This document shows, piece by piece, positions 1 through 64,000 of a DNA stretch of 64,000 nucleotides. The stretch is from the human T2T-CHM13v2.0 reference genome, Homo sapiens. Positions within the stretch are counted from its first letter, which is position 1; every line of letters starts with the position of its first letter. The translations under genes and the position numbers were made by a program. Location: assembly GCF_009914755.1 (NCBI RefSeq), contig NC_060946.1; one strand, given 5' to 3'. The notes below the pieces were generated by a model, which saw nothing but the letters and a program-made list of their open reading frames with translations, was not told where the DNA came from and ran no database searches.

Positions 1-252
1 AATGCAGTGGCTCTATCTTGGCTCACTGCAACCTCAGCCTCCCAGGTTCAAGCTATTCTCCTGCCTTAGCCTCCTGAGTAGCTACGACTAAAGGCATTCA
101 CCACCACGCCCAGCTAATTTGTGTATTTTTTAATACAGGTGGGGTTTTGCCATGTTGCCCAGGCTGGTCTTGAACTCCTGACCTCAAGTGATCCTCCTGC
201 CTCAGCCTCCCTAAGTGTTGGCATTACAGGCATAAGCCACAAGGCTTGGCCT
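1..252 (-). mobile_element. Alu SINE (AluS/J-like), cut by window start
   Basis: Reverse-complement Alu motifs: gctcactgcaacctc, cagctaattt..gtatttt, ctgacctcaagtgatcctcctgcctcagcc. Confidence 0.95.
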
Positions 253-1850
253 GATTCTGTTTTTTAACACAATTCCTATTACTTCTGTTTTAATTTTACA
301 AAGCCATAGGTTTTTAATCTGAGAAACCTTTGAGAAAGCATCCAGATAAATTTATAAATAGAAAAATAAATTCAGATACATAGAATTAAGTTTATGATCT
401 AACTACTGGGTGGCAACTGAAAAATTTTCAAGTTCCATAAACTGAAGTGAAAGGATCACTTTCCTGAAAATATTACAAAGGCTTGATAATTACCTGGATT
501 GTACTAAAACCTACACAATCTAGTATATTCTATAGCAGCAATGCATAAAGACAGCTTCACTTACCATGTAGAATTTATACGTACACTAAATTTAAGGAAT
601 GCGTTACTTGTTATTGGAGTAGGAAAATAACTCCCAGCAGAACTGATTTGCATGAATGGCTATTAAACTATCATCAATGTAGAAATTAAACGTTAAGCTA
701 TTCAGCCCCAGATGTGTGAGAGACAGAGAAAATCTTCAAATGAGTTCAGCTACCAAATCCCTTCCTCAATAGCTCTTTGAGTCTCAAGACAGTTTCAACC
801 ACACACAACCTCAGAGTCTTATGGTCCAAACAACATTTGACTGCAGCTCTAAAGTAAGCAAACATTTGAAAAGAAACAATCAAAGATCTATGCCTATAGT
901 TATGGTCAAGGAGGCCCACCTACTGGTGGGTGAGCATGGCAAGGATAGGGACTAAGAGAAATGATGGATTTACCAAAACAGAAACAAGATAAGCCAATGG
1001 AAGCAGAGTCCAGGTTATAACAGGAGCCCAGGCACTTGATGTGGGAACCCTATTTGTCTCACTTAGCGCTAGAGTTTTAACGTCCTAGGAAGCAGAGCTA
1101 ATGCCCTTCATTATTTTTTTTTGTAATTGACTGCATAGTTTAGAACTATGCCTTGAATTTAATATCTATCTGTTGAATAAATGAATTAATAATGATGAAA
1201 ATCTGTCCACAGGTTATGTGCAGTACTGAAGAGCAACTTCAGCTATTGAGGTATCTATCAGAAGTCTTCCTCTCTAAAAAGCCTCTGGTTAATTACTGAT
1301 ATAGGTTGCTGACAATTTCACTCTCACAATGTAGGGGAAGCAGGAATGTTATCTGGCCTCTTGGCTCCTATTCCTTTGCCTTCCACAGATCTCTCTGCTG
1401 GTTCACAGAGGAACAGTTTTGTGGCTTTCAGTTCATTTTGCAATTCTGCTAGAATCTCATTCCATCCTCAATTGTAACTAGCTTGTCCTTCACCCAATGC
1501 TTATTTATGGAGGGACAGATAGCAAGAAGAAATCGCACTCTGGATTACAAAGTGGGAAGAAGCACCCCTTGGCCAGAATGCCTGCCTCCTATGTTCATGA
1601 TGGATATTTCTAATTGATCTTGGCACTCTATTCCATTGAGCCCATGTCCCAAATTGGCCCTGAGTTAGGGAGAGGGCTCTAGAGTGGGAAAGGTGTACCC
1701 AAAACTTCCCTAATCTGACTATCAAGCCTAAAAAATTAAACTTTCAATTCAACATCCCTTGTTTCTCCAACTTGGAGTGCCTGATTGTGTGGGAAGCCCC
1801 TACTCATAAAAATTCATAGTTGAAGATTGTTGGTAATTTTGCCCAACCCC

Positions 1851-2306
1851 TTCTTTTTTTTGGTTATACTTTAAGTTCTAGGGTACATGTGCACAACGTG
1901 CAGGTTCGTTTCATATGTATACATGTGACATGTTGGTGTGCTGCACCCATTAACTCGTCATTTACATTAGGTATATATCCTAATGCTTTACCTCCCCTAG
2001 CCCCTCACCCCACAACAGGCCCCAGTGTGTGCTGTTCCCCTTCCTGTGTCCATGTGTTCTCATTGTTTAATTCCCACCTATGAGTGAGAACATGTGGGGT
2101 TTGTTTTTTTGTCCTTGTGATAGTTTGCTGAGAATGATGGTTTCCAGCTTCATCCATGTCCCTACAAAGGACATGAACTCATCATTTTTATGGCTGCATA
2201 GTATTCCATGGTGTATATGTGCCACATTTTCTTAATCCAGTCTATCATTGTTGGACATTTGGGTTGGTTCCAAGTCTTTCCTATTGTCAGTAGTGCCTCA
2301 ATAAAC
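1851..2306 (-). mobile_element. 5'-truncated L1 3' end (L1PA5-like)
   Basis: T-run then ttatactttaagttctagggtacatgtgcacaacgtgcagg...gtcatttacattagg, matching the L1PA 3'UTR. Confidence 0.9.
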
Positions 2307-3924
2307 TCCTTCTTTCTTTGCCTAGTTACACCTCAACGCAACCTCCTGGCAGGCCAGCCTTAAGCCCAGCAGTCCAACCATGCATCTAAGCTGAGTTCTC
2401 ATCAGAGCCAACTTCAATTATAAACAACTGAGATGATGCCAGAGGCCAGAATCCCTGAGAACCCAATTTGCTGTCATCACCATGGCTGAAACAAGGCGCT
2501 TGTCATCTAGAAAAGCTGATCTGTAGGAAATTTCCAATAGAGTTCAATTTTTCTAAGTTTAAAGTATACAATATCATCAAGGTCAGACACTCGAGATAAA
2601 ACTAGGCTTGCATTTAAATATAATAAAAATATTTGAAGAATAGTAAGAGTGGTGACTACTTTTACACAGGAATGTTTTAAATAAATTGTTTTTTTCTTGT
2701 GCCTTTAAAATTTTGTGATTTGTCAATGAGATGCTGACATATTTTTAATGAAGCATGCCTTGTAAAATAATAAGTGAATGAAAAATACACAGTAATATTC
2801 ACATCAACAAAGCTAGAAGAAGACTGTATGTCTCAAGAGGCTCCATCATCTACCCAGTGGCGACTTGACCAAATTAAGATCCAAATACCAAAAAGAAAAG
2901 TAATTAAAATTTGTGTTGTATGCCTTATAAGACCAAACGTATAAAATGAGGGGAAACTTCACAATTACTTGTAATTTGCTCTGTGGAATTGTAACAGATG
3001 GATTATAAAGATGATTCCACGATAAACATCTAAATGTGGTTACTACCTTCTGTGCTTTCTTGGTTCATATTTTTATTGTTTTTTTCTTTATAAACAGATA
3101 ATTCATTCTTATCTATGGCAATGCAAACTTTTCAGATGTATTGAATATGTCATAGTTTTTATCTATTGTAGGCATCTCTAAAAAGGTATAGAAAACAAAC
3201 AGAGCAAAGTCTGGTTTTGGAAAGGAGAGAGAAATAAAGCTTGTAAAGGAATGAAAATTAGAGCTTTCTGGAGATAAAAATTGTTAGAAGATACAAAAGC
3301 TAGTTACTGAATTAGATGAAGGTTCTTTTTCAGTTTTTCCCAGTCGTTCACCTCTTAGAAGGCACATATTCACAGCAGAAAAGAAAGAAAGGGTTAAAAA
3401 GAAAATATCTCCGTGTAGTGAGACTGTAATTTCATGAGGGCATTACTGAAGACTCACTTTTTCCAGCATCACTCAACATGGTATTATGCATGCGTGTAAT
3501 GTAAAGGAAAGTGAATACGCATTCTTGGATGGGTGATCAAATTGTAATTCCAGAATATAATCAGAAGCTGATTCATTATCCTCTTGAGATTTCACAATCT
3601 TTCCATCAGCAATTAAAATTCAGAAGAGGGTAAATGTATCTAATCTTTTGAATGTGATAAATTAGAGGGTGGAGCCAAGATGGCCAAATAGGAACAGCTC
3701 CAGTCTACAGCTCCCAGCGTGTGTGATGCAGAAGACGGGTGATTTCTGCATTTCCAACTGAGGTACAAGGCTCATCTCACTGGGGAGTGCTGGACAGTGG
3801 GTGCAGCGCACCATGCATAAGCCAAAGCAGGGCAAGGCATCACCTCACCTGGGAAGCTCTAGGGGTCAGGGAATTCTCTTTCCTAGTCAAAGAAAGAAAG
3901 GGGTGACAGATGGCACCTGGAAAA

Positions 3925-61610: not shown

Positions 61611-61826
61611 GACAGGTGTACCTAATAAAAATATGCTTAGTGACTTGGGATAAACCAATAGTTGTTCAAAAGTGATGGAGAGCCGTGAAAGAGAGATAGC
61701 GGTAAATAGTTACAATAACACAATTTTCCTGCACCTGTCGAGGATTTCCCCCAAAAAACGCAGAATGTGGGATGCACCTAAGGCATATGAAAGAGAGAGG
61801 GCAGAAGGAGTAAGAGAGAAATAGGA

Positions 61827-61936
61827 GGAAGGAAGGAAGGAAGGAAGGAAGGAAGGAAGGAAGGAAGGAAGGAAAGAAGGAAGGTAGGACGGAAGGAAGG
61901 AAGGAAGGAAGGAAGGAAAGAAGGACGAAAGGAAGG
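61827..61936 (+). repeat. (GGAA)n microsatellite
   Basis: 12 perfect units at 61827-61874 and 7 perfect units at 61891-61918. Confidence 0.97.
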
Positions 61937-61989
61937 AGAAAACACCAGTGTTACTAAAACCCCCCAAAAAGTGGTTTCCCCCTGTGGGT

Positions 61990-62325
61990 AAGCCTACAAT
62001 GTGGATGAATCTTGAAAATATTGTGCTACGTGTTATGTCAGTCATAGCAGCTCACCTATTGTGCAATTCCGTTTATAGGAAATGTCCACAATATGGAAAT
62101 CTATGCATATGGGATTGATCGCACTAGGTAGTTGCTACCTAGGGCTGAGGGTCAGGGAGAGGGTTTGAGACAGAATGAGGAGTGACTAATGTCTACAGGG
62201 TTTTTCTCTGGTCGGGGGTGATAAGACGTTCTACAATGGATTGCGAATTAAAATTGAATGTGCACAACCACAGGTATAGTAAAAGCCACTCAATTCATGA
62301 CGTTTAATGGGGGAATCTTATGTGG
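61990..62325 (+). mobile_element. Old L1M 3' region
   Basis: tggatgaatcttgaaaatattgtgcta...attccgtttataggaaatgtcca...ggtgataagacgttcta. Confidence 0.7.
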
Positions 62326-62534: not shown

Positions 62535-63998
62535 TCACCGGTAGTGTGGCCCGCAGGGACGCCGACCTGCTGGAGCGTCGTGCCAGCATGGGCTGTGGCA
62601 TCCACGTGGGCCAGCAGGAGGTTCCCGCTGCACAGCTGTGGGGTGAGGATAGACTGGGTGGTGATATCGGCCATTACAGGGGCCTCTTCTGCTGGCAAGA
62701 GTGTGACAGTAGCAAGTAGATGGACAGGCCTGTGTGTGAGGACGTAATGCAGGAGGGGCTCTTGTGCGGCTGGGTGTGGGGCCCTCACGGGAACCGTGGA
62801 GAAATGGCCAGGTAACTGCGTCATGTGGGCTGGTAGATTGGCCAGGGCTTCGAACTGAAGGACGATAACGGGGAGTAGCTGTCAGGCCCTGGGAGTGCCT
62901 GAGTGTAAGTGAAGATGGGTTTGGGGTCACTGAGGGATGCGTGGGAGCCATCCCTGTATAGGTACAGGTCGCAGGGAGATAGCCTCGTGAGGCCTGTGAG
63001 TGTCTAGGGTTGTCCTGGGTGCCTGGGGCTGACTGTGGCAGAAATCTGGGGAAGGCTGGAGAGAAGCTGGGAGACCCAGGAGAGTCCCTGAAGGCAGGGG
63101 GTGAAGAGGTGAAAGAAATGGGGGTGGGTTGCAGTAAGGTCCGTGAGTTTGTAGGTGATTCCTGGGTGCGGGAAGCTGACTCCAGGTGAAATCTGGAGAT
63201 GGTTGGAGAGTAGCTGAGAGAGACAGAAGAGTCCCTGAGGGTTGGGGGTGAGAACATGAGGGAGACGGGGGAGTAAGTCAGTGAAATTCGTGAGTTCGGT
63301 GGTGTATCGTGGGTGCCTGAAACTGACTCCAGCTGGAATCTAGAGAAGTTTTGAGAGTAGCTGAAAGAGACACAAGAGTCCCTGTGGGCTGAGGGCAAAG
63401 ACCTGAGAGAGACCAGGGAGGACCTCAGTGAAGTCTGTGAGTCTGTAGGTGATTCCGGAGTGTGGGAGGCTGACTCCCGCTGAAATGTGGGCGTGGTGGG
63501 AGAGTAGCTGGGACAGACAGGAGAGTCCCAGGGGGCTGGGGGTGAAGACATGAGAGAGAGTGGGGAGTAACTCAGTGAAATTGCTGAGTTGGTTGGTGAT
63601 ACCTGGGTGCCTGGAACTGACCCCCGCTGAAATCTGGGCATGGTTGGAGAGTAGCTGGGACACACAGGAGAGTCCCTGAGGGCTGGGGGTGAAGACATGA
63701 GAGAGACCGGGGAGTAACTGAGTGAAACTGGTGAGTTTGGTGGCGACTCCGGGGTGCGTGGAACTGACTCCAGCTGAAATGTGGGCGTGGTTGGAGAGTA
63801 GCTGGGACAGTCAGGAGAGTCCCTGAGGACTGGTGAAGACATGAGAGAGACTGGAGAGTAATTGAGTGAAATTGGTGAGTTTGGTGGTGATTCCTGGGTG
63901 CCTGGAACTGACTCCCGCTGAAGTGTGGGCGTGGTTGGAGAGTAGCTGGGACACACAGGAGAGTCCCTGAGGGTTGGAGATAAAGACGTGCTAGAGAC
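62535..63998 (-). CDS. Putative Pol II CTD-like heptad-repeat protein (5'-incomplete ORF; translation unproven)
   Basis: The 473-aa track ORF starts at a GTG, but the frame stays open to the window edge (VSSTSLSPTLRDSP before VCPSYSPTTP). 49-aa repeats with SYSPTTP/SYSPVSL; unique C-terminus; TGA at 62535-62537. Confidence 0.4.
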   Translation of the reverse strand, partial: VSSTSLSPTLRDSPVCPSYSPTTPTLQRESVPGTQESPPNSPISLNYSPVSLMSSPVLRDSPDCPSYSPTTPTFQLESVPRTPESPPNSPVSLSYSPVSLMSSPPALRDSPVCPSYSPTMPRFQRGSVPGTQVSPTNSAISLSYSPLSLMSSPPAPWDSPVCPSYSPTTPTFQRESASHTPESPTDSQTSLRSSLVSLRSLPSAHRDSCVSFSYSQNFSRFQLESVSGTHDTPPNSRISLTYSPVSLMFSPPTLRDSSVSLSYSPTISRFHLESASRTQESPTNSRTLLQPTPISFTSSPPAFRDSPGSPSFSPAFPRFLPQSAPGTQDNPRHSQASRGYLPATCTYTGMAPTHPSVTPNPSSLTLRHSQGLTATPRYRPSVRSPGQSTSPHDAVTWPFLHGSREGPTPSRTRAPPALRPHTQACPSTCYCHTLASRRGPCNGRYHHPVYPHPTAVQREPPAGPRGCHSPCWHDAPAGRRPCGPHYR

Positions 63999-64000
63999 TG
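62990..64000. repeat. 147-bp tandem satellite (ACRO1-type), about 7 units, running off the window
   Basis: Anchor gagtccc at 63082, 63229, 63376, 63523, 63670, 63817 and 63961 (spacings 147 x5, then 144); G-rich plus strand. Confidence 0.92.

What the first reader, a model, noticed from the sequence alone, without database searches (positions are those of the whole stretch)
62535..64000. Satellite array that reads as one long ORF for an RNA Pol II CTD-like protein
Seen: the minus strand of the 147-bp satellite is stop-free for at least 487 codons, even though the units differ visibly (SYSPTTPTFQ, SYSQNFSRFQ, SFSPAFPRFL). The only length variant among the clear units is 144 bp, a one-codon loss that keeps the frame. 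The other minus frames are interrupted. The frame continues past the array into unique sequence and ends in TGA. Known: YSPTSPS heptads are the RPB1 CTD, a substrate of CDK7/9/12/13 and a docking platform. From memory (to verify), ACRO1 RNA was reported to contain Pol II-binding aptamers and to resemble CTD codons. Inference: this could be an overlooked satellite-encoded, copy-number-variable gene for a disordered CTD mimic or decoy, rather than inert DNA.
Basis: partly seen in the sequence, partly recalled or inferred. Interest (0 to 1): 0.85.

Follow-up and report, generated by a model that had tools for sequence, protein, structure and literature searches.

The report
Long open frame in ACRO1 satellite
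The ACRO1 satellite on human acrocentric short arms carries a roughly 1,000-codon open reading frame for a serine/proline-rich protein that resembles the RNA polymerase II tail, and the same frame is kept in marmoset and rabbit relatives, so it may be a real, fast-evolving gene.

Summary
The 487-codon open minus frame in the window is the 3' part of a 1,021-codon stop-to-stop frame, window 62538-65600.

- **Copies:** 125 of the 150 scored ACRO composites in this genome have an open frame of at least 950 aa.
- **Already in print:** the Pol II CTD likeness of translated ACRO1 is published (Boots 2020). A 2025 preprint calls it a "putative protein coding gene".
- **Against coding:**
  - Human copies differ neutrally (omega 0.95, frameshifts, stops).
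  - The C-rich strand is stop-poor in all frames.
  - The 3n period follows from a 21-bp sub-repeat.
- **For coding:**
  - Predicted proteins with the same architecture and the same frame exist in marmoset, red colobus, rabbit and unnamed sources.
  - Human and marmoset differ by about 30% of residues but by one 1-codon gap in 477 aligned non-array codons.
  - Older duplicates lack frameshifting indels.
  - Each composite has one proven DUX4 site about 0.8 kb upstream.

Best reading (about 0.5): a selection-kept frame of a fast-evolving disordered protein gene embedded in a macrosatellite.

The parts
62535..62537 (-). TGA stop codon of the long frame
62538..62993 (-). C-terminal tail, about 150 codons of non-array sequence. 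It includes the most conserved stretch, ACPSTCYCHTLASRRGPCNGRYHHP.
   Evidence: C, P, S, H, R and N columns are invariant in 9 aligned sequences; the tail aligns to marmoset over 159 of 176 aa at 74% identity with no gap, and to P0011 over 168 of 176 aa at 55% with no gap; 150 copies in the genome at 93-100% identity.
63013..64000 (-). ACRO1 array, 147-bp units of 49 codons, each made of seven 21-bp sub-repeats. The array continues outside the window to about 64568.
   Evidence: TRF; lag 21 gives 66 of 147 matches, against a 99th percentile of 60 for the maximum in shuffles; the folded 21-mer matches the POLR2A CTD 21-mer in 15 of 21 positions, in frame.
62538..64000 (-). The in-window part (487 codons) of the 1,021-codon stop-to-stop frame. 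The full frame is window 62538-65600, and positions above 64000 lie outside the window. The first ATG is at 65516 (MSAPKKSRV), in a weak Kozak context.
62308..62313 (-). ATTAAA, 229 nt after the stop. It sits at the same distance (232 nt) in a chr15-contig copy and is a candidate poly(A) signal.
   Evidence: A consensus match only.

Best explanation
The window holds the 3' half of one copy of the ORF carried by the ~6.3-6.6 kb ACRO composite repeat of the acrocentric short arms.

**Architecture of the frame**
- ATG (MSAPK...) and a short N-terminus.
- A 105-codon Ser/Pro-rich block, X1.
- Two 49-codon ACRO1 units.
- A second copy of the block, X2.
- 10-15 ACRO1 units.
- A ~150-codon tail with a conserved CPSTCYCH...NG..HHP stretch, then TGA.

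Each 49-codon unit is seven diverged heptads (xSPxSxx; one per unit reads SYSPTTP). Its folded 21-nt consensus matches the POLR2A CTD repeat at the DNA level, in the same frame.

**Reading**
I read it as a frame that selection has kept open. It would belong to a fast-evolving, intrinsically disordered Ser/Pro-rich protein gene older than primates. Compact one- or two-unit forms exist elsewhere. In primates the internal units and then the whole gene were amplified into a macrosatellite, and each unit has a DUX4 site about 0.8 kb upstream.

**Shown:** the ORF, its architecture, its copies, the motif, same-frame homologues, and the scarcity of indels in old comparisons.

**Inferred:** that DUX4-driven transcripts (reported at the 4-cell stage) include this frame, that it is translated, and that the product acts through its CTD-like heptads. 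It could be a substrate or competitor for CTD kinases and CTD-binding factors, or a partner in Pol II condensates.

The window's own copy is an outlying, inverted pair: arm A is intact and arm B is broken.
For: 1. **Length and ubiquity.** The frame is 1,021 codons here. 25 of 26 composites on the chr15 contig have 955-1,101 codons. 125 of 150 scored copies (303 candidates) have at least 950 codons.
2. **Homologues in the same frame.**
   - Marmoset: 832 aa, with the same N-terminus, X1, two units, X2, units and tail.
   - Red colobus: 291 aa.
   - Rabbit: 575 aa, about ten strongly diverged units at 47-49 aa spacing plus the tail.
   - Unnamed P0016: 355 aa with N-terminus, X block, one unit and tail.
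   - Unnamed P0020: 361 aa.
   - Rabbit against human frame 0 scores 146 bits (E 3e-40), against at most 23.5 bits in the other five frames.
3. **Frame conservation at near-neutral residue divergence.**
   - Human-marmoset: 318 of 319 aa aligned at 70% identity with one 1-aa gap, and 159 of 176 tail aa at 74% with none.
   - P0011 tail: 168 of 176 aa at 55% with no gap.
   - A neutral simulation giving 71% identity leaves 478 codons stop-free in at most 0.5% of runs.
4. **Old duplicates.** Units plus X1/X2 show 1 indel (3 nt) per 202 substitutions. Recent copies show 8 per 147, of which 7 are frameshifting. Fisher p is 0.012 for all indels and 0.0026 for frameshifting ones.
5. **DUX4 site.**
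   - One TAATCCAATCA lies 821-828 nt upstream in 25 of 26 chr15-contig units.
   - One lies in the spacer beside the window copy, where 0.03 are expected by chance.
   - This 11-mer is the EMSA-tested DUX4 site (passage).
   - Papers state that DUX4 activates ACRO1 transcripts, and that ACRO1 RNA peaks at the 4-cell stage (passages).
6. **Disorder.** AlphaFold2 of the compact homologue gives mean pLDDT 42 and no secondary structure. The composition is 23% Ser and 18% Pro.
Against: 1. **No residue-level constraint.**
   - Between units: 92 nonsynonymous, 47 synonymous and 1 stop, against a neutral 95.2 / 40.6 / 4.3.
   - Between about 33 paralogues: omega 0.95, or 1.08 without the broken arm, with flat codon-position counts.
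   - X1 against X2: omega 0.66 against a neutral-simulation median of 0.79, and 27% of simulations are lower.
2. **Recent copies decay neutrally.**
   - The inverted arm has 104 / 40 / 4 against 101.9 / 41.2 / 4.9, and indels of 4, 1, 1 and 1 nt.
   - About 5 of 26 chr15-contig copies carry frameshifts and 2 carry an early stop.
   - The ORF is no less diverse than its 3' flank: 0.0086 and 0.0071 against 0.0058.
3. **Stop-creating changes are about 3-fold rarer than modelled in all three frames**, so the lack of stops is partly compositional.
4. **The 3n period follows from a 21-bp base repeat**.
5. **Weak start context:** cttatcATGt.
6. **Published transcription block.** Boots 2020 reports that 1-1.4 kb of ACRO1, but not its reverse complement, almost abolishes reporter RNA, and that no stable ACRO1 transcript was found in HeLa. 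That the ORF strand is the aptamer strand is my inference.
7. **Weak database support.**
   - No gene is annotated in the window (hub note).
   - No human or ape protein from NCBI nr or UniRef was among the hits.
   - The other-species proteins are predictions and I had no DNA for them.
   - The marmoset model has a ~60-aa excursion into another frame.
   - Other database fragments show frame switches in the tail.
8. **Two of the recent 1-nt indels sit in C runs** and could be assembly errors, which would weaken the old-versus-recent contrast.
Confidence: 0.5

Rival explanations
1. Incidental ORF in a non-coding satellite. ACRO1 would be DNA or RNA-level sequence: a self-silencing Pol II-binding nascent RNA as in Boots 2020, or inert. 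The frame stays open because the unit is built of 21-bp (3n) modules, the C-rich strand has almost no stop triplets, and the arrays were homogenised very recently. The predicted proteins in other species would then be annotation by-products of the same stop-poor sequence.
For: - Strand composition and stop counts.
- The consensus unit is open in 2 of 3 frames.
- The POLR2A CTD exon is open in a wrong frame for 425 aa.
- The 21-bp sub-period.
- Copies differ from their consensus by only 0-8 substitutions per ~950 nt.
- Omega is about 1, with neutral indels and stops among paralogues.
- ACRO1 RNA binds Pol II (1,029 sense against 1 antisense mappings) and blocks elongation in cis.
- No Pfam domain. 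The AlphaFold2 model has no fold.
Against: - It does not explain the near absence of indels and stops across about 480 non-array codons between human and marmoset at ~30% residue divergence.
- It does not explain the ungapped 168-aa tail match at 55% identity.
- It does not explain ten strongly diverged rabbit units all in frame 0.
- It does not explain the conserved ATG (MSAP) in four sources.
- It does not explain X1 and X2 keeping exactly 105 codons at 20% divergence.
Confidence: 0.3
2. Relic of an old gene. A real Ser/Pro-rich gene of the primate-rabbit ancestor was captured in the ACRO composite and amplified. The frame was under selection in the past, but the human copies are now unconstrained pseudogene-like units that have not yet had time to decay.
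For: - The same cross-species evidence as the best explanation.
- The neutral pattern of all recent human variation.
- 25 of 150 scored copies have a shortened frame.
- No annotated gene in the window.
Against: - With some 300 copies, selection on any one copy is expected to be weak, so neutral-looking paralogue variation does not show loss of function.
- 125 of 150 scored copies still carry at least 950 open codons.
- The DUX4 site is kept in 25 of 26 units.
- Papers report regulated ACRO1 RNA in embryos.
Confidence: 0.2

Closest known systems
ACRO1 satellite / ACRO 6-kb composite, with the Pol II-binding aptamers of Boots et al. 2020 (PMC7714431)
   Same: This is that sequence: 147-bp units inside a ~6 kb higher-order repeat on acrocentric arms (passages). 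The paper already reports that the translated consensus is about 50% identical (23 of 49) to a CTD fragment, and it raises descent from CTD mRNA.
   Different: - The paper treats the RNA as the active agent and describes no full-length ORF.
- It states that no non-primate homologue was found. Here a rabbit predicted protein aligns colinearly at E 8e-40.
- New here: the 1,003-1,101-codon architecture, the DNA-level match of the 21-mer, the DUX4 site position and the evolutionary tests.
RPB1 (POLR2A) C-terminal domain heptad repeats
   Same: - Heptad periodicity, with one SYSPTTP-type heptad per unit.
- The only PDB sequence matches are RPB1 CTDs, at E about 1e-5 with heavy compositional bias.
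- The folded 21-nt consensus matches the CTD repeat in 15 of 21 positions, in frame. That includes AGN at heptad position 7 where the CTD uses AGC. 0 of 20,000 column permutations reach the observed score.
   Different: - No polymerase body.
- The Pfam PF05001 model does not match.
- A genome scan with it lists POLR2A and a chr16-contig locus but no ACRO copy among 150 scored of 629 candidates.
- Only 8 of about 146 heptads in the 1,021-aa frame fit Y[ST]P.[ST]P.
- The rabbit homologue has no PDB match at all.
Macrosatellite-embedded genes, such as DUX4 in D4Z4 (others recalled from memory: USP17 in RS447, TSPY in DYZ5)
   Same: One long ORF per several-kb tandem unit, a copy number that varies between people (passage), and an ORF retained across species as the main argument for function.
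   Different: - No folded domain.
- Residue evolution is near neutral.
- Transcript structure and protein are unproven.
- The ORF itself contains a satellite whose unit number varies in frame.
Database predictions named 'DNA-directed RNA polymerase II subunit RPB1(-like)' in marmoset, red colobus and rabbit
   Same: Homologous to this ORF in the same frame.
   Different: They are automatic models named for their best hit, not RPB1 orthologues. No experimental support for them was seen here.

Membership tests
RPB1 CTD repeat (Pfam PF05001) | Tandem YSPTSPS heptads recognised by the family model | tested here: not met
   No PF05001 hit at E up to 10 for the 1,021-aa frame. In the genome scan the model reaches POLR2A but lists no ACRO copy among 150 scored of 629 candidates.
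RPB1 CTD repeat (Pfam PF05001) | 7-residue (21-nt) periodicity with Ser-Pro at fixed positions | tested here: met
   Lag-21 autocorrelation is 66 of 147. The folded consensus matches the CTD 21-mer in 15 of 21 positions, with 0 of 20,000 permutations as good.
RPB1 CTD repeat (Pfam PF05001) | Attached to the RNA polymerase II largest-subunit body | tested here: not met
   No polymerase domain. Only two sub-threshold Pfam rows, both at E 1.4.
ACRO1 satellite / ACRO composite | 147-bp tandem unit within a ~6 kb higher-order repeat on acrocentric short arms | tested here: met
   TRF period 147. Spacing of 6.3-6.6 kb on contigs 13, 14, 15, 21 and 22, plus one array on contig 3. Definitions come from passages.
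Macrosatellite-embedded protein-coding gene (D4Z4/DUX4 type) | One conserved ORF per repeat unit | tested here: met
   25 of 26 units. 125 of 150 scored copies have at least 950 open codons.
Macrosatellite-embedded protein-coding gene (D4Z4/DUX4 type) | ORF kept across species beyond the neutral expectation | tested here: inconclusive
   The protein-level evidence is positive. It rests on predicted proteins without their DNA, and residue-level omega is about 1 in human.
Macrosatellite-embedded protein-coding gene (D4Z4/DUX4 type) | mRNA and protein demonstrated | not testable with these tools
   Only literature statements on ACRO1 RNA. No paper found pairing ACRO1 with translation data: one unrelated hit for ACRO1 + Ribo-seq, and nothing relevant in the listing for ACRO1 + satellite + peptide.
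DUX4 target locus | DUX4 binding motif near the transcription unit | tested here: met
   TAATCCAATCA once per unit in 25 of 26 units, 821-828 nt upstream. One in L009, where 0.03 are expected by chance. It is the EMSA-tested motif.
DUX4 target locus | DUX4 binding and activation at this site | not testable with these tools
   Review and introduction passages say DUX4 activates ACRO1 transcripts. The primary papers were not read.

The most novel reading that the evidence does not exclude
Every ACRO composite (about 300 in this genome) is a DUX4-switched gene. At zygotic genome activation, and in FSHD muscle or tumours that express DUX4, it would make a ~110-kDa disordered protein carrying a dozen or more CTD-like heptad blocks. 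That protein would compete with, or co-condense with, the Pol II CTD for its kinases, phosphatases and readers. The unit would descend from a captured piece of POLR2A CTD coding sequence more than ~90 million years ago, and its dose would vary between people with array length.
Probability: 0.15. Interest if true: 0.9.

Novelty: new member of a known kind. Interest (0 to 1): 0.62.

Why it matters
If the frame is translated, the acrocentric short arms would carry a several-hundred-copy, copy-number-variable protein gene. These arms were long absent from reference genomes.

The gene would be tied to DUX4 and to the first wave of embryonic transcription, and its product would look like the regulatory tail of RNA polymerase II. 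That bears on zygotic genome activation, on FSHD, and on tumours that re-express DUX4 or ACRO1 RNA.

If the frame is not translated, the case is still useful as a calibrated warning. A 1,000-codon ORF can persist in C-rich, 21-bp-periodic DNA, and paralogue-level dN/dS cannot settle the question for multi-copy arrays.

The rabbit and unnamed compact homologues also revise the printed statement that ACRO1 is primate-specific.

Tried and rejected
- **Pfam** on the 1,021-aa frame gave nothing usable.
- **Rfam** on the 10-kb locus gave no family.
- **PDB sequence search** found only RPB1 CTDs with heavy compositional bias, and none for the rabbit protein.
- **A zinc-binding reading of the Cys/His-rich tail** was considered and dropped. 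Only one Cys and one His are invariant in 9 sequences.
- **AlphaFold2** on the compact homologue gave no fold: pLDDT 42 with a 9-sequence alignment. This fits disorder but is also what a non-protein would give.
- **My first reading**, a purely incidental ORF, rested on paralogue omega of about 1. I lowered it after the homologue searches.
- **Stop depletion within the array** is not frame-specific. Frames 1 and 2 show the same shortfall against my model, so I do not count it as evidence.
Their ORF state comes only from the open-frame column.
- **Literature search** for 'RPB1-like' plus 'acrocentric' found no paper.
- **Supplements** of the bioRxiv preprints, including the figure naming the ACRO1 gene model, could not be read.
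Full report
**1. The observation**

- The minus-strand frame 62535..63998 is open for 487 codons and runs off the window's end. It stops at TGA: the plus strand reads tca at 62535-62537.
- Tandem Repeats Finder reports a 147-bp array at 63041-63998, 6.5 copies at 77% matches, with 294- and 441-bp higher orders.
- The other two minus frames each have three stops within the array. The plus frames have 16, 19 and 31.
- The window is C22:9734001-9798000 of the held genome.

**2. Extension of the frame**

With 10 kb of adjoining sequence (L009) the frame becomes 1,021 codons stop to stop, window 62538-65600. Its parts are:

- a short N-terminus, with the first ATG at codon 29 (MSAPKKSRV; context cttatcATGt, weak);
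- a 105-codon Ser/Pro-rich block, X1;
- two ACRO1 units;
- a second copy of the block, X2;
- the main array;
- a ~150-codon non-array tail.

The composition is 23% Ser, 18% Pro and 8% Thr.

**3. The locus**

- L009 is an inverted pair. Arm B (L009 4670-8034) is 96.5% identical to arm A (159-3524), and about 1.1 kb lies between them.
- Arm A's frame is intact. Arm B has in-frame stops and indels of 4, 1, 1 and 1 nt.
- The inversion breakpoint sits a few bases upstream of arm A's ATG.
- Elsewhere the same sequence forms head-to-tail arrays with a 6.3-6.6 kb period on contigs 13, 14, 15, 21 and 22, and one array on contig 3.
- This is the published ACRO composite: ACRO1 plus L1PA10, MER21B and L1MB8 pieces (passages).

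**4. How many copies carry the frame**

- In 170 kb of the contig-15 array, 25 of 26 units have a minus frame of 955-1,101 codons and one is split by a frameshift.
- A genome search with the tail scored 150 of 303 candidates, all at 93-100% identity.
- Of those 150, 125 lie in an open frame of at least 950 aa, 10 in 700-949 aa, and 15 in less than 700 aa.
- The main length classes are 1003 (47 copies), 1101 (34), 1052 (16), 1149 (2) and 1248 (1). They differ by whole 49-aa units.

**5. Reasons a long frame is cheap here**

- The minus strand is 40% C and 15-17% G. It has 6 stop triplets in any phase in 988 nt, against 66 on the plus strand.
- The consensus unit is open in two of three minus frames.
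- The unit has a clear 21-bp sub-period: 66 of 147 matches at lag 21. Shuffles give a mean of 40.9, and the 99th percentile of their maximum is 60. So 147, 144, 291 and 438 bp are all 3n by construction.
- The real POLR2A CTD exon shows the same property. It is open for 399 aa in the true frame and 425 aa in another.

**6. Tests within the human genome**

| Comparison | Nonsyn / syn / stop observed | Neutral expectation | Other results |
|---|---|---|---|
| 15 units of one ORF, 140 distinct substitutions | 92 / 47 / 1 | 95.2 / 40.6 / 4.3 | Frames 1 and 2 also show fewer stop-creating changes than modelled (1 vs 3.8; 2 vs 3.1) |
| The two arms | 104 / 40 / 4 | 101.9 / 41.2 / 4.9 | The first ~76 nt of the ORF is not homologous between arms, which inflates counts slightly |
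| 33-34 paralogues, two non-array segments (954 and 913 nt) | 104 / 40 / 3 | 103.0 / 37.5 / 6.3 | Omega 0.95, or 1.08 without arm B; flat codon positions (41, 56, 50) |

- Small indels among the paralogues number 8, and 7 of them are not 3n.
- Pairwise diversity is 0.0086 and 0.0071 in the ORF against 0.0058 in the 537 nt after the stop.
- However, most copies differ from their consensus by only 0-8 substitutions per ~950 nt. With hundreds of copies, selection on any one copy is expected to be weak. I therefore treat this test as uninformative rather than negative.

**7. Older comparisons**

- X1 and X2 are each exactly 315 nt. They differ at 62 sites (80.3% identity) and have no indel.
- Their omega is 0.66 in frame 0 and 0.97 in the other frames. 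A neutral simulation has a median of 0.79, and 27% of runs fall at or below 0.66. 17.6% of runs stay stop-free.
- Units plus X1/X2 together show one indel type (3 nt) per 202 substitutions. The recent paralogue variation shows 8 per 147.
- Fisher p is 0.012 for all indels and 0.0026 for frameshifting ones.
- Caveat: two of the recent 1-nt indels lie in C runs and could be assembly errors. Unequal crossing-over may also police unit length inside the array.

**8. Other species**

A word-indexed search of 5.8 billion proteins gave five hits:

- two unnamed;
- one with no listed source (97% identical, probably another human copy);
- a marmoset protein of 832 aa, from nr/UniRef and named RPB1;
- a rabbit protein of 575 aa, from nr and named RPB1.

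An exhaustive HMMER search with the tail gave 14 representatives. A third search added a red colobus 'RPB1-like' protein and two unnamed ones.

- **Marmoset:** the same start (MSASKNTGV), X1, two units, X2, units and tail.
- **P0016 (355 aa):** the start (MSAPEERRV), one X block, one unit and the tail.
- **P0020 (361 aa):** X1, two units and the tail.
- **Rabbit:** about ten strongly diverged units at 47-49 aa spacing, then the tail. It aligns colinearly with human residues 454-982 at 34% identity, E 8e-40 with compositional adjustment.

Each of these matches only the human frame 0 among six frames. Rabbit scores 146 bits against at most 23.5. The exception is a ~70-aa stretch of the marmoset protein, which matches frame 1.

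Boots 2020 states that no non-primate homologue was found. The rabbit protein contradicts that.

**9. Is the frame kept beyond chance between species?**

- Human against marmoset: 318 of 319 N-terminal-to-X2 residues align at 70% identity with one 1-aa gap. 159 of 176 tail residues align at 74% with no gap.
- P0011: 168 of 176 tail residues at 55% with no gap.
- P0016: 170 of 176 at 47% with four short gaps.
- In a neutral simulation with the local substitution spectrum, 71% residue identity needs about 0.16 substitutions per site. The 478 codons then stay stop-free in at most 0.5% of 400 runs.
- That model over-predicts stops about 3-fold (section 6), so the true figure may be a few percent.
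- At the local ratio of one indel per ~18 substitutions, 8-11 indels are expected and one is seen. Poisson gives 0.003 to 0.0002. Even at 5 expected it gives 0.04.
- Choosing an intact copy cannot remove indels fixed across a homogenised array.

Weaknesses:
- These are predicted proteins and I had no DNA for them.
- The marmoset model leaves and re-enters the frame once.
- Several database fragments switch frame inside the tail.

**10. CTD likeness**

- The only PDB sequence matches are RPB1 CTDs, at E about 1e-5 with 169 bits of bias correction.
- Pfam's CTD-repeat model does not match. A genome scan with it lists POLR2A and a contig-16 locus but no ACRO copy among 150 scored of 629 candidates.
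- At the DNA level the ACRO1 units folded to 21 columns give a consensus identical to the POLR2A CTD 21-mer at 15 of 21 positions, in the same frame. Four of the six mismatches are at third codon positions.
- Position 7 is AGN where the CTD uses AGC, while positions 2 and 5 are TCN in both.
- None of 20,000 column permutations reached the observed profile score.
- This supports either descent from CTD-coding sequence, which Boots 2020 raised as a possibility, or convergence. I cannot tell which.
- Only 8 heptads in the 1,021-aa frame fit Y[ST]P.[ST]P. There are 99 Ser-Pro or Thr-Pro pairs.

**11. Regulation**

- The 11-mer TAATCCAATCA occurs once per composite in 25 of 26 contig-15 units. It lies 821-828 nt upstream of the frame, on the opposite strand.
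- It occurs once in L009, at window 65823-65833 in the spacer, where 0.03 are expected by chance. That site is 307 nt from arm A's ATG and about 840 nt from arm B's start.
- It is the sequence shown to bind DUX4 by EMSA (passage).
- Papers state that DUX4 activates ACRO1 transcripts (passages in introductions or reviews, primary papers not read).
[quoted passage not shown] ACRO1 is reported hypomethylated in spermatogonial stem cells and sperm (passage).
- ATTAAA lies 229-232 nt after the stop in both copies examined. An AATAAA lies between the DUX4 site and the frame.
- No transcription start site can be placed from sequence.

**12. Evidence against an mRNA**

- Boots 2020 found no stable ACRO1 transcript in HeLa.
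- The paper showed that 1-1.4 kb of ACRO1, but not its reverse complement, almost abolishes reporter RNA co-transcriptionally.
- Their aptamers map 1,029 sense against 1 antisense and are CA-rich.
- That the aptamer strand is the ORF strand is my inference from composition and from their translating it.

**13. Structure**

AlphaFold2 of the compact homologue P0020 with a 9-sequence alignment gave mean pLDDT 42, pTM 0.12 and no secondary structure. This fits a disordered protein and is equally what a non-protein would give. Rfam has no match in the locus.

**14. What is in print**

- The CTD-like in-silico translation.
[quoted passage not shown] 2020)" and varies in copy number between generations. 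Its supplementary figure could not be read.
- I found no paper linking ACRO1 to ribosome profiling or peptides. ACRO1 + Ribo-seq gave one review that is not about this. ACRO1 + satellite + peptide gave five listings with nothing relevant. ACRO1 + open reading frame gave eight listings; passages from three were read, with nothing on this ORF, and the other five were judged from title and abstract alone. 'RPB1-like' + acrocentric gave none.

**15. Verdict**

The human-only tests look neutral, but they have little power for a 300-copy family. The deeper comparisons favour a frame kept by selection while residues drift almost freely.
- I put 0.5 on a selection-kept coding frame of a fast-evolving disordered protein gene embedded in a DUX4-linked macrosatellite.
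- I put 0.3 on an incidental ORF in a non-coding satellite or aptamer RNA.
- I put 0.2 on a decaying relic of an older gene.

Noticed in passing
window 62159-65524 and 66670-70034 (L009 159-3524 and 4670-8034); partly outside the window: Inverted duplication of the ACRO ORF region. The arms are 96.5% identical with a ~1.1 kb spacer that holds a (CA)n run and the DUX4 motif. One arm has an intact frame and the other is broken. This pair lies far from the main arrays, and its tail is 4-7% diverged from the other 149 scored copies at the protein level.
   Followed up: partly
L009 8148-9564 (window 70148-71564, outside the window): A second tandem repeat with a period of about 202/395 bp, 71-75% matches and G+C-rich, just beyond the inverted arm. 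Not identified.
   Followed up: no
window 61826-61937: A (GGAA)n microsatellite, 28 copies, about 600 bp downstream of the ORF stop.
   Followed up: no
L027 (G000:C17:7416409-7419450): The POLR2A CTD exon is stop-free in two frames: 399 aa in the true frame and 425 aa in a shifted frame. The shifted frame reads LPATRPP-type repeats that resemble the shifted-frame translation of ACRO1.
   Followed up: partly
G000:C16:30912683-30912931, minus strand: The Pfam CTD-repeat model also matches three stretches inside a 536-aa open frame on contig 16, outside POLR2A. The gene was not identified.
   Followed up: no
G000:C3:95753901-95862770: An ACRO composite array of at least 17 units on contig 3, which is not one of the acrocentric contigs. 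Its copies are as similar to the acrocentric ones as those are to each other. Several of its units have shortened frames (637, 484, 540 and 440 aa).
   Followed up: no
proteins P0005 (rabbit) and P0016 (unnamed source): Homologues of the ACRO ORF outside primates, including a compact one-unit form. This contradicts the printed statement that ACRO1 has no non-primate homologue.
   Followed up: partly
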